Virus genome (UHGV): UHGV-0306718
Strand: one strand, 5' to 3'
DNA from: a virus
DNA: 10,231 nucleotides
Shown here: piece after piece, positions 8,353 through 8,995 of the stretch
Numbering within the stretch: position 1 is the first letter of the stretch
Layout of the letters: the number at the start of each line of letters is the position of its first letter
Notes under the pieces: model-generated
Seen by the model: the letters and a program-made list of their open reading frames with translations, nothing else
Database searches by the model: none
What the model was told of the DNA's origin: nothing
Program-made: the position numbers and the translations under genes

Positions 8353-8438
8353 CGAACACATAATTACCGATGAAACAAAACTGAGACACACAAAGCTTTG
8401 CACTGGACTGCAAGGCTTTGTGATCTTCGATAGTGGTT

Positions 8439-8460
8439 AAGGTGGATCACTCCACCTTTT
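8439..8460 (+). terminator. Candidate terminator downstream of the membrane-protein gene
   Basis: AAGGTGGA-TCAC-TCCACCTT hairpin followed by TT; the U-tract is short. Confidence 0.35.
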
Positions 8461-8692
8461 CATCAAGCCAATCCGCCCACCACTGCATCATTTCTCTGCG
8501 CTTAACGTAGTTGATGCATCACTATCACCCTGTAATGGCTTATTACTGGTTTGCAGACAGGTAGGCATGAACATATGCCTGCGCATGAAGATGGAACTAG
8601 TCCGGATGCGATATTTTTGGTGATCACGTACATCATCAACGAAGTGCGTTATGGTGAGTTTGATGACTACCCGCTGAAGTGAAAATTGTGTT

Positions 8693-8714
8693 GTGTACCA
8701 AATTGCGTACCAAA
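8693..8714 (+). repeat. Direct repeats G(T/C)GTACCAAA, two copies; putative integrase arm-type binding sites
   Basis: GTGTACCAAA at 8693-8702 and GCGTACCAAA at 8705-8714, same orientation. Confidence 0.4.
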
Positions 8715-8944
8715 CTAAAATCACAAATCATGAAACCCTTGTTCATGGCGGTTCTCAGGGGTGTTGCGCGTAATCGTGAAAGAGGAAGGTAGGTTGTTTA
8801 TCTGTGTCTGTCATTGTCTAGCATTGTCCACTGTAGTTAATTAACTGTCTGTTATAACTCGAAAAACAACCATTTTTTCACCTGAGTATGTCTACGAACG
8901 TCAAATATAGTTGTTTACTGTGCGCTGTTGTCCATGTGATATTG

Positions 8945-8988
8945 TGTACCAGATGTGTACCAAACCATTATTTTTGAGCGTACCAAAT
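8945..8988 (+). repeat. Direct repeats G(T/C)GTACCA(A/G)A, three copies, immediately upstream of the int start; putative arm-type sites
   Basis: GTGTACCAGA at 8945-8954, GTGTACCAAA at 8955-8964, GCGTACCAAA at 8979-8988; the int ATG is at 8996. Confidence 0.4.
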
Positions 8989-8995
8989 ATTATTT

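What the first reader, a model, noticed from the sequence alone, without database searches (positions are those of the whole stretch)
8353..8995. att-like non-coding region with five direct G(T/C)GTACCAAA repeats and a 12-bp AT palindrome
The roughly 640-bp gap between the membrane-protein gene and int has no convincing ORF. It contains two clusters of the same 10-mer in direct orientation (8693-8714 and 8945-8988, the latter ending 8 bp before the int ATG). Between them lie the perfect palindrome AGTTAATTAACT (8835-8846) and repeated ATTGTC(C/T)A motifs. This layout, arm-type sites flanking a core, is what an attP site or the att junction of an integrated element looks like. The arm repeats overlap the likely int promoter, suggesting autoregulation. 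No tRNA-like T-loop sequence is present.
Basis: partly seen in the sequence, partly recalled or inferred. Interest (0 to 1): 0.45.

Follow-up and report, generated by a model that had tools for sequence, protein, structure and literature searches.

The report
Phage attachment site targeting sbcB
The right half of this gap is the already known attachment site (attP) that a group of E. coli/Shigella phages use to insert into the host sbcB gene, and the five repeats are very probably where the phage integrase grips the DNA, so the finding is real but ordinary.

Summary
Five same-strand copies of G(T/C)GTACCA(A/G)A lie at 8693, 8705, 8944, 8955 and 8978, and the palindrome is at 8835-8846.

The reading as attP is right. 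The crossover core is CGTAATCGTGAAA (8769-8781), not the palindrome. Prophage attR junctions match the window up to the core, and attL junctions match from 8769 onward. The same 13-mer lies in codons 13-17 of K-12 sbcB. It is published as the attP core of phages 2851 and Sf101.

The repeats behave as arm-type integrase sites, two in the P arm and three in the P' arm.
- The integrase has an Arm-DNA-bind_3 domain.
- The three P' GTAC cores are invariant in 20 loci from other genera.
- Two distant attP sites (73% and 62% Int identity) keep all five positions.

The ATTGTCYA words belong to a second motif, GTYYA, phased every 10 bp in two blocks. It resembles the TorI excisionase sites of KplE1.

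The minus strand 8814-8769 carries a replacement sbcB start, MTDTDKQPTFLFHDY.

The left half of the gap is not att. It holds relics of an IntS-like integrase and of humD.

Autoregulation is plausible but inferred. The window's int is cut at codon 340 by a fold-back.

The parts
8389..8422 (+). Stem-loop downstream of the 100-aa ORF. Not part of att.
   Evidence: Inverted repeat I2: 14-nt arms, 93% complementary, 6-nt loop.
8447..8503 (-). Relic of the 3' end of an IntS-like (KplE1/CPS-53) integrase gene: the last 18 codons, KRREMMQWWADWLDEKVE, plus the stop. The hairpin at 8439-8458 overlaps the stop.
   Evidence: tblastn of K-12 IntS against the window: residues 368-385 match 8503-8450, 100% identity, E 2.7e-7. 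Hairpin I18.
8551..8682 (+). Relic of the C-terminal part of a humD/umuD'-like (S24 peptidase family) gene. Its stop lies 11 bp before P1.
   Evidence: tblastn of the 43-aa translation hits HumD/UmuD-like genes of P1, P7, N15, D6 and RCS47. PGAP calls it a pseudogene in L001 and L002. An intact UmuD-like gene holds the same position in the distant attP locus L068, but it shows no detectable similarity to this relic.
8693..8702 (+). P1, arm-type site GTGTACCAAA (P arm).
   Evidence: A copy of the locus-specific word lies at the same distance from int (-301) in attP of L068 and L092.
8705..8714 (+). P2, arm-type site GCGTACCAAA (P arm).
   Evidence: Conserved at -289 in L068 and L092.
8769..8781 (.). 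Core (crossover region), CGTAATCGTGAAA. It is identical to attB inside sbcB codons 13-17. Imperfect similarity to attB continues to 8798 (26 of 30 positions).
   Evidence: attR junctions match 8353-8798 and then run into host sequence. attL junctions start at 8769. K-12 comparison. The phage 2851 record begins and ends with this 13-mer. It is published as the attP of 2851 and Sf101 (PMC4159516).
8769..8814 (-). Phage-borne replacement 5' end of sbcB: ATG at 8814-8812, then MTDTDKQPTFLFHDY read into the core. After integration it is fused in frame to the host sbcB body in attL.
   Evidence: Translation. PGAP annotates an intact 474-codon sbcB that starts at the position equivalent to 8814 in a lysogen. 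An in-frame ATG, GTG or TTG lies 11-13 codons before the His of HDYET in all 30 sbcB-type loci scored, 29 of them next to sbcB (attL) and one, L068, an attP.
8816..8840 (+). Block A of the second motif, GTYYA, at 10-bp phase: GTCTA 8816, GTCCA 8826, GTTAA 8836. Probably binding sites for the excisionase (recombination directionality factor, RDF).
   Evidence: Across 27 loci the motif peaks at -130 and -120 from the P'1 GTAC. In the window, 8 + strand copies occur in 164 bp against 0.9 expected. KplE1 TorI pentamers are the published analogue.
8835..8846 (.). Palindrome AGTTAATTAACT. It is not the core. Relatives keep only GTT..TTAAC. It overlaps a weak IHF-consensus match at 8842-8854 (-).
   Evidence: The IHF scan is not above chance, 30 matches against 24 expected.
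8890..8934 (+). Block B of the GTYYA motif: GTCTA 8890, GTCAA 8900, GTCCA 8930, and an off-phase GTTTA at 8913. The 8930 site lies between the putative -35 and -10 of the int promoter.
   Evidence: Peaks at -56, -46, -36, -26 and -16. The -16 site is present in 19 of 27 loci. Counts are 95 on the + strand against 25 on the - strand. G8930, T8931, C8933 and A8934 are invariant or nearly so in alignment A4.
8914..8943 (+). Putative int promoter: -35 TTTACT (8914-8919), 18-bp spacer, TG at 8935-8936, -10 GATATT (8938-8943).
   Evidence: Inference from conservation of CATG(T/C)(G/A)ATATTG directly upstream of P'1. The consensus scan did NOT report it.
8944..8953 (+). P'1, arm-type site GTGTACCAGA. 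It starts 1 bp after the putative -10.
   Evidence: GTAC (8946-8949) is invariant in 20 diverged loci.
8955..8964 (+). P'2, arm-type site GTGTACCAAA, 11 bp after P'1.
   Evidence: The 11-bp spacing holds in all 36 loci that have three GTAC sites.
8978..8987 (+). P'3, arm-type site GCGTACCAAA. It ends 8 bp before the int ATG.
8996..10015 (+). int, codons 1-340 of a 392-codon heterobivalent tyrosine integrase (Arm-DNA-bind_3 plus Phage_integrase domains). 340 of 344 aligned residues are identical to the sbcB-locus prophage integrase of E. coli STEC799 (L002).
   Evidence: Pfam. BLASTP.
10016..10231 (+). Fold-back. This stretch is the reverse complement of the 216 bp of a normal int that begin 23 bp before the break point, so 23 bp are present twice in opposite orientation. 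The ORF therefore ends at 10069 (357 aa) and lacks His354 and Tyr363.
   Evidence: Minus-strand matches. 23-nt perfect inverted repeat 9993-10015 / 10209-10231. Invariant H354 and Y363 in alignment A2.

Best explanation
Positions about 8690-8990 are the intact attP of the sbcB-specific int/att module shared by phage 2851, Sf101, mEp234 and many E. coli prophages. Here the module sits in a P22-like phage.

The integrase is a heterobivalent tyrosine recombinase. Its catalytic and core-binding domains act on the core CGTAATCGTGAAA (8769-8781) and on the same 13-mer inside codons 13-17 of host sbcB. Its N-terminal Arm-DNA-bind_3 domain binds the five GYGTACCARA repeats, P1 and P2 lying 55-76 bp left of the core and P'1 to P'3 lying 163-206 bp right of it. 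Protein bridges between arms and core, with DNA bending, would assemble the intasome.

After integration the P' arm stays with int in attL. The phage sequence 8814-8769 (- strand) supplies a new start codon and 12 codons, so sbcB stays intact.

The GTYYA pentamers, phased every 10 bp in two blocks between the core and P'1, are probably sites for the small AlpA-like excisionase (recombination directionality factor, RDF) encoded next to int in related phages.

P'1 abuts a conserved extended -10-like box and one GTYYA site lies in the promoter spacer. Int and the RDF would therefore repress int transcription, as shown for KplE1 IntS and TorI.

Shown here: the att identity, the core position, the conservation of sites, and the sbcB reading frame. 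Inferred: which protein binds which motif, the promoter, and the repression.
For: Core and attP identity
- attR of prophages matches window 8353-8798 and then continues into the sbcB 5' end and the dacD intergenic region.
- attL matches start at 8769 with sbcB annotated under the match. Both junctions occur in one genome about 43 kb apart.
- K-12 attB shares the 13-mer.
- The phage 2851 record is linearised at this 13-mer.

Int
- Arm-DNA-bind_3 scores E 6e-18 and Phage_integrase E 2e-11.

Arm sites
- The repeats are enriched.
- In 36 of 39 homologous loci (40-99% Int identity, from Buttiauxella to Gilliamella, Proteus and others) exactly three GTAC sites sit in the last 60 bp before int, spaced 11 and 22-24 bp.
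- In a 20-sequence alignment with 64% mean column identity, 12 of the 19 invariant non-coding columns are these three GTACs.
- A Photobacterium relative at 48% identity has three GCGTCCAAA copies in a similar arrangement.
- Two independent distant attP sites keep two further copies of their own word variant at -300/-288 and -302/-290. Their attL counterparts lack them.

Second motif
- Exact 10-bp phasing and strand bias across 27 loci.
- KplE1 attL has five TorI pentamers (GTTCG, GATCG, GTCCG) in two blocks. The block next to -35 represses intS, and the IntS P'1 site overlaps the -10 (PMC2951348).

sbcB rescue
-.
Against: - There is no binding, footprint or transcription-start data for this module.
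- The consensus scan reports no sigma-70 promoter upstream of int. The proposed -35 and -10 each match only 4 of 6 positions.
- The IHF consensus is not enriched.
- No Int residue segregates with the GTACC and GTACA word variants, so I cannot show protein-site co-evolution.
- The small HTH protein next to int scores below the Pfam AlpA threshold (17.8 bits against 21), and its full gene is not present in the window.
- The window's own int lacks the catalytic Tyr because of the fold-back. If that is real, this copy cannot recombine by itself.
Confidence: 0.85

Rival explanations
1. The protein assignments are swapped. The GYGTACCARA repeats bind the excisionase (RDF) or another regulator, and the phased GTYYA pentamers are the integrase arm sites.
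For: Both motif families are conserved and strand-biased. No binding data exist. The GTACCARA sites cover the int 5' leader, where a simple repressor could act.
Against: GYGTACCARA occurs on both arms, 2 + 3, at fixed distances in three lineages, as arm sites do. GTYYA arrays occur only on the int side in two blocks. That is the layout shown experimentally for the RDF TorI on KplE1 attL, including a similar pentamer GT(T/C)CG.
Confidence: 0.07
2. The three repeats upstream of int are only transcriptional or translational control elements of int, and the two upstream copies are incidental. Recombination would need only the core region.
For: The P' repeats lie between the putative -10 and the ATG. 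Some tyrosine recombinases work without arm sites.
Against: The integrase carries a dedicated arm-binding domain. The two P-arm copies are kept at the same distance, with the lineage's own word variant, in attP sites of phages whose Int is only 62-73% identical, while the surrounding sequence is unalignable.
Confidence: 0.05
3. The region is a prophage-host junction (attL or attR) or a scar, rather than a functional attP.
For: The window's int is truncated. The flank contains decayed genes.
Against: Sequence left of the core equals the phage side of attR, and sequence right of it equals the phage side of attL, within one genome. No host sbcB or dacD sequence is present beyond the 13-mer. The left neighbours are P22-like late genes and a tailspike. 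The relics are part of the same module in active phages such as 2851 and Sf101.
Confidence: 0.02
4. The repeats are chance or low-complexity sequence without function.
For: Short 10-mers in an AT-rich intergenic region.
Against: None of 200 shuffles reach the observed count. The GTAC cores are invariant across genera while neighbouring columns vary.
Confidence: 0.01

Closest known systems
attP/int module of Stx2c phage 2851, Shigella phage Sf101 and phage mEp234 (sbcB integration)
   Same: Identical 13-bp core CGTAATCGTGAAA upstream of int. The same five repeats are present. The window's Int is 340/344 identical to the sbcB-locus prophage integrase of E. coli STEC799. The Sf101 paper reports its own Int as 99% identical to those of phage 2851, mEp234 and HK544. 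The same humD relic lies to the left. The target is the 5' end of sbcB.
   Different: Here the module sits behind a P22-like tailspike and a 100-aa ORF. The window lacks the 64-bp segment present in the relic of phage 2851 and E212. int is cut by a fold-back after codon 340. The papers I could read name only the core, not the arm repeats, the second motif or the sbcB replacement start. Strauch et al. 2008 was not available.
KplE1 (CPS-53) attL / IntS / TorI of E. coli K-12
   Same: int points away from the core, so its promoter lies inside the P' arm. Arm-type sites run from the -10 box to the ATG. RDF pentamers (GTTCG, GATCG, GTCCG) lie in two blocks between the core and the -35. Int and the RDF both repress int. 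I saw the same geometry in the K-12 sequence.
   Different: IntS is only 21% identical. Its arm word is TTTTACCC-like rather than GTACCAAA (my reading). [quoted passage not shown]
Bacteriophage lambda attP
   Same: Two arm-type sites in the P arm and three in the P' arm around a short core. Heterobivalent Int, and accessory bending and excision factors (established knowledge; PMC4880445 is listed but I did not read it).
   Different: The arm word and Int N-terminal fold family differ. Lambda int is transcribed towards attP from pI/pL, so its promoter is not in the att arm. Lambda Xis sites lie in the P arm, whereas here the candidate RDF sites lie in the P' arm. Here all five repeats are in direct orientation.
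Satellite phage P4 attP/int
   Same: P4-type integrase with an Arm-DNA-bind_3 domain. attP lies directly upstream of int, with repeated Int sites overlapping Pint. Int and Vis down-regulate int. This rests on my memory of Pierson and Kahn 1987 and Piazzolla et al. 2006. The KplE1 paper mentions the Vis case.
   Different: P4 targets the 3' end of tRNA-Leu (leuX) with a 20-bp core. I made no sequence comparison with P4 here.

Membership tests
attP of a heterobivalent (lambda/P4-type) tyrosine integrase | Adjacent integrase gene with a separate N-terminal arm-binding domain plus a tyrosine-recombinase catalytic domain | tested here: met
   PF13356 Arm-DNA-bind_3 E 6.4e-18 and PF00589 E 1.8e-11. 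The catalytic Tyr is missing from this copy because of the fold-back.
attP of a heterobivalent (lambda/P4-type) tyrosine integrase | Short core identical to a bacterial attB, with attL and attR junctions switching from phage to host within it | tested here: met
   13-bp identity 8769-8781 with K-12 sbcB. attR ends and attL starts there.
attP of a heterobivalent (lambda/P4-type) tyrosine integrase | Repeated arm-type words on both sides of the core, distinct from the core sequence | tested here: met
   2 + 3 copies. Positions are conserved in distant attP and attL sites.
attP of a heterobivalent (lambda/P4-type) tyrosine integrase | Integrase N-terminal domain physically binds the arm words | not testable with these tools
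   Needs a gel shift or footprint.
attP of a heterobivalent (lambda/P4-type) tyrosine integrase | Sites for accessory bending and directionality factors (IHF, RDF) | tested here: inconclusive
   The IHF consensus is not above chance. A phased GTYYA array is conserved, but its binding protein is unknown.
sbcB-specific att/int module (phage 2851 / Sf101 / mEp234) | Core CGTAATCGTGAAA upstream of int | tested here: met
sbcB-specific att/int module (phage 2851 / Sf101 / mEp234) | Integrase nearly identical to that of the named phages | tested here: met
   340/344 identical over residues 1-344 to the sbcB-locus prophage Int of STEC799. At the DNA level, 8550-8781 is 90.5% identical to the end of the phage 2851 record, and the alignment from the core to the int start shows few mismatches. 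The C-terminal 50 residues are absent here.
sbcB-specific att/int module (phage 2851 / Sf101 / mEp234) | Lysogens carry the prophage in the 5' end of sbcB | tested here: met
   The twenty E. coli genomes listed that match only from 8769 (H44-H63) all have sbcB annotated under the match, next to int. The full locus is shown.
tRNA-gene-targeting P4-like att site | Core overlaps a tRNA gene | tested here: not met
   No tRNA in the window. attB lies in sbcB codons. Relatives at 50-56% identity do sit beside tRNA-Arg(CCT).
Negatively autoregulated int with its promoter inside attL (KplE1 IntS type) | int is transcribed away from the core, so its promoter must lie in the P' arm | tested here: met
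   Geometry: core at 8769-8781, int ATG at 8996 on the + strand, and host DNA begins left of 8769 in attL.
Negatively autoregulated int with its promoter inside attL (KplE1 IntS type) | An arm-type site overlaps or abuts the -10 or the transcription start | tested here: inconclusive
   A conserved TGnNATATT box ends 1 bp before P'1, but the scan called no promoter and no transcription start is known.
Negatively autoregulated int with its promoter inside attL (KplE1 IntS type) | Int (and the RDF) lower int promoter activity | not testable with these tools
   Needs a reporter assay. Shown only for KplE1 and a few others.

The most novel reading that the evidence does not exclude
The most novel reading not excluded is that this is one member of a widespread Enterobacterales integrase family with a rigid attP blueprint. 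The blueprint is two arm sites at about -301 and -289, a core at about -227, two 10-bp-phased blocks of RDF-like pentamers, and three arm sites running from the -10 to the ATG.

The family has moved between targets: sbcB, a PfpI/YhbO-like gene, and the anticodon region of tRNA-Arg(CCT). In each case it appears to replace the 5' end of the target, not the usual 3' end, and so must also supply a start codon or promoter. The sbcB and PfpI-like targets share GTTTCGTAATC (codons D-Y-E-T). That hints at retargeting by core mimicry.

Neither the arm words nor this 5'-replacement habit appears in the papers I could search.
Probability: 0.45. Interest if true: 0.4.

Novelty: already known. Interest (0 to 1): 0.25.

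Why it matters
The site itself is a known phage attachment site, so the main value is correct annotation. The core is at 8769-8781, not at the palindrome. The repeats are arm sites. Half of the 'gap' is gene debris.

Two details could be useful beyond annotation.

1. Stx2c-converting and serotype-converting phages that use this module do not knock out sbcB (exonuclease I). They re-equip it with a phage-encoded start and N-terminus, which matters when reasoning about lysogen phenotypes.
2. The deeply conserved five-site layout plus a second phased motif gives a ready set of natural variants for studying how Arm-DNA-bind_3 integrases and AlpA-like excisionases read DNA, and for defining a minimal attP (about 300 bp) for integration vectors.

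Tried and rejected
- Palindrome as core: rejected. The junctions map 54 bp to its left, and relatives keep only GTT..TTAAC.
- tRNA target: none in the window.
- Rfam: only the sar RNA of the immI region at 4911-4978, nothing in the gap.
- Sigma-70 promoter and terminator scan of 8000-9200: no promoter upstream of int, and the hairpin at 8439-8458 was not called.
- IHF consensus scan: 30 matches against 24 expected, uninformative.
- Co-evolution test between Int residues and the GTACC versus GTACA word variants: no segregating column. The variants are interspersed among close relatives and two loci are mixed, so I dropped the idea of a specificity switch.
- Pfam on the two small ORFs in the gap (78 aa on the - strand, 43 aa on the + strand): no hits.
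- tblastn of the intact UmuD-like protein of L068 against the window: no hit. The humD relic was confirmed only with the window's own 43-aa translation.
- KplE1 IntS as a close relative: rejected, 21% identity.
- Full-text search for GTACCAAA with 'integrase' returned only unrelated primer hits. The 13-mer occurs in one paper.
- Strauch et al. 2008 could not be read.
- The phage 2851 GenBank record carries no att or repeat features.

Full report
**Context.** The window is the late and immI region of a P22-like phage. It holds injection-protein genes, mnt/arc/ant with the sar antisense RNA at 4911-4978, and a tailspike with a P22 head-binding domain at 5982-7973. These are followed by a 100-aa ORF (8050-8352), the 643-bp gap in question, and int (8996 onward). 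The best phage matches are E. coli phages N7 and E212 and P22-like Salmonella phages.

**Observation.** The five direct repeats, the palindrome and the ATTGTCYA words are all present at the stated positions. With up to one mismatch, GYGTACCAAA occurs 8 times in the window against 1.24 expected, and none of 200 shuffles reached 8. Five of those copies lie on the + strand within 295 bp.

**Where the core is.**
- A search of complete E. coli genomes showed two kinds of partial match. One kind covers 8353-8798. The other starts at 8769 and runs through int.
- In strain JBEHAAB-19-0176 both kinds occur about 43 kb apart.
  - The first kind follows lambdoid tail-fibre genes and runs into the dacD upstream region.
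  - The second kind lies beside sbcB.
  - These are therefore the attR and attL junctions of a prophage.
- Alignment with the uninterrupted K-12 locus shows that attP and attB share CGTAATCGTGAAA (8769-8781), followed by imperfect similarity up to 8798.
- The attB 13-mer lies in codons 13-17 of sbcB.
- The phage 2851 GenBank record starts and ends with the 13-mer and contains the same five repeats.
- So the site is attP, the core is known, and the palindrome at 8835-8846 is not the core.

**The five repeats.**
- The integrase carries the P4-type arm-binding domain (Arm-DNA-bind_3, E 6e-18) and a tyrosine-recombinase domain.
- I collected homologous integrase loci from one genome per species and from viral contigs.
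- In 36 of 39 loci, with Int identity from 99% down to 50%, there are exactly three GTAC sites in the last 60 bp before the start codon. They are spaced 11 and 22-24 bp, and the last one ends about 8 bp before the ATG. The genera include Buttiauxella, Erwinia, Pantoea, Serratia, Tatumella, Rosenbergiella, Yersinia, Rahnella, Orbus, Gilliamella, Xenorhabdus and Proteus.
- A 20-sequence alignment of this region has 64% mean column identity. Twelve of its 19 invariant non-coding columns are those three GTACs.
- A Photobacterium relative (48% identity) has three GCGTCCAAA copies in a similar arrangement.
- Most loci are prophages and so show only the P' arm. Two distant viral contigs have an intact attP.
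  - L068 (73% Int identity) has gtrA, gtrB and an intact umuD-like gene upstream.
  - L092 (62% Int identity) is the other.
  - Both carry two more copies of their own word variant, at -300/-288 and -302/-290. These are the same distances as P1 and P2 here (-301/-289).
  - The integrated counterparts of L092 lack those two copies and have host DNA there instead.
- This is the pattern expected of arm-type sites: two in the P arm and three in the P' arm, the same count as in lambda.
- The fifth base of the word is C or A, and usually the same in all copies of a locus. No integrase residue segregates with it, and close relatives differ, so I make no claim of co-evolving specificity.

**The second motif.**
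- Anchored on the P'1 GTAC, 27 non-redundant loci show peaks at exactly -16, -26, -36, -46 and -56, and at -120 and -130. There are 95 + strand occurrences against 25 on the - strand.
- In the window the sites are at 8816, 8826 and 8836 (block A) and at 8890, 8900 and 8930 (block B), with an off-phase site at 8913. The site at 8836 is the left half of the palindrome.
- In KplE1, the one system of this architecture that has been dissected, attL carries five pentamers (GTTCG, GATCG, GTCCG) bound by the excisionase TorI. They lie in two blocks, and the block next to the -35 represses intS. The IntS arm site P'1 overlaps the -10 (PMC2951348). The same geometry is visible in the K-12 sequence.
- By analogy I assign the GTYYA array to the small AlpA-like HTH protein encoded convergently with int in related phages. 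This step is inference.

**int promoter.** Directly upstream of P'1 the relatives conserve CATG(T/C)(G/A)ATATTG. This reads as an extended -10 (TG at 8935-8936, GATATT at 8938-8943), with a weak -35 (TTTACT, 8914-8919). A start near 8950 would fall inside P'1, and the nearly invariant GTCCA at 8930-8934 lies in the spacer. That fits repression by Int and by the RDF. However, the consensus scan did not call a promoter there, and there are no transcription data.

**sbcB is rebuilt, not destroyed.**
- The - strand from 8814 reads ATG ACA GAC ACA GAT AAA CAA CCT ACC TTC CTC TTT CAC GAT TAC, that is MTDTDKQPTFLFHDY. Host ExoI begins MMNDGKQQSTFLFHDY.
- In attL this phage sequence is fused in frame to the body of sbcB.
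- PGAP annotates an intact 474-codon sbcB that starts at the phage-derived ATG in a lysogen.
- All 30 sbcB-type loci scored (29 beside sbcB in attL, plus the L068 attP) keep an in-frame ATG, GTG or TTG 11-13 codons before the His of HDYET. Many have a stop codon just upstream of that start.
- A leftward promoter must also be supplied, but I could not locate one.

**The left half of the gap (8353-8690) is not att.**
- It holds a stem-loop at 8389-8422.
- On the - strand it holds the last 18 codons and the stop of an IntS-like integrase, 100% identical to K-12 IntS.
- On the + strand it holds the C-terminal fragment of a HumD/UmuD'-like protein. PGAP annotates that fragment as a pseudogene in near-identical prophages.
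- The whole block 8068-8798 is 97% identical to the right end of a lambdoid prophage. The 100-aa ORF, the relics and the att/int unit therefore travel together as a mosaic module between P22-like and lambda-like phages.

**The window's int is incomplete.**
- Identity to full-length integrases stops at 10015, which is codon 340.
- Positions 10016-10231 are the reverse complement of the 216 bp of a normal int that begin 23 bp before the break. This leaves a 23-nt perfect inverted repeat at 9993-10015 and 10209-10231, ending exactly at the window end.
- The resulting 357-aa ORF lacks the invariant His354 and Tyr363.
- This looks like an assembly fold-back at a contig end, but a real rearrangement cannot be excluded.

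**Verdict.** The site is already known in the literature at the level of its core and target. The arm-site map, the phased second motif and the sbcB replacement start add annotation detail of a standard kind. Interest is low to moderate.

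Noticed in passing
window 10016-10231 (with 9993-10015): The last 216 bp are the reverse complement of the 216 bp of a normal int gene that begin 23 bp before the break. This creates a 23-nt perfect inverted repeat that ends at the window end and truncates int to 357 aa, without His354 and Tyr363. It is probably an assembly fold-back, but it could be a real rearrangement.
   Followed up: partly
window 8447-8503, - strand: The last 18 codons (KRREMMQWWADWLDEKVE) and the stop of an integrase, 100% identical to the C-terminus of K-12 IntS (KplE1/CPS-53). 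This looks like a fossil of an earlier, argW-type int module replaced by the sbcB-type one. The hairpin at 8439-8458 overlaps its stop codon.
   Followed up: partly
window 8551-8682, + strand: C-terminal relic of a humD/umuD'-like gene just left of the P arm. The distant attP locus L068 has an intact 106-aa UmuD-like gene in the same place (L068 2368-2688). Phage 2851 and E212 carry a 64-bp segment that is missing here.
   Followed up: partly
window 8068-8798 versus L001 5716-6446: The 100-aa hydrophobic ORF (8050-8352), the relics and the P arm are 97% identical to the right end of a lambdoid prophage with lambda-like tail fibres. The cargo gene and the att/int unit appear to move as one mosaic module between P22-like and lambda-like phages. 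The ORF has no Pfam or NCBIfam match.
   Followed up: partly
L002 (E. coli STEC799) 5800-7625; also O157:H7 strains MB9-1 and Show KS 470-1: These chromosomes contain an uninterrupted attP-like junction at the sbcB locus: late genes and nleG7, then the humD relic, both arms, and int. This is what tandem prophages at one attB would produce.
   Followed up: no
L096 1953-2501 (- strand), compared with L092: Relatives with 61-62% Int identity integrate into the 5' end of a 182-aa gene that, by eye, looks like a PfpI/YhbO (DJ-1 family) gene. The junction is at the same distance from int, and the phage supplies a new start (VQSPHLAEDYET...). That target shares GTTTCGTAATC (codons D-Y-E-T) with sbcB.
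   Followed up: partly
L021, L022, L023, L025 (tRNA at about 2233-2307, - strand; int at 2501): Relatives with 50-56% Int identity lie beside tRNA-Arg(CCT), with the tRNA's 5' end facing int. The family's conserved core distance (-227) falls on the anticodon loop. That would mean the phage replaces the 5' half of the tRNA gene, the opposite of the usual 3'-end replacement.
   Followed up: partly
L029 (Klebsiella sp. BIGb0407), about 40-130 bp upstream of int: The second motif is expanded into 11 tandem copies of CTGTTCA. The P'1 and P'2 arm sites are missing and the int reading frame is broken. This looks like a decayed attL.
   Followed up: no
window 4911-4978, - strand: sar antisense RNA of the P22 immI region (Rfam RF00262, 92 bits). 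It confirms the P22-like ant/arc/mnt module.
   Followed up: no
window 4808-4817, - strand: An exact sixth copy of GCGTACCAAA, far from att in the immI region and on the opposite strand. Probably chance.
   Followed up: no
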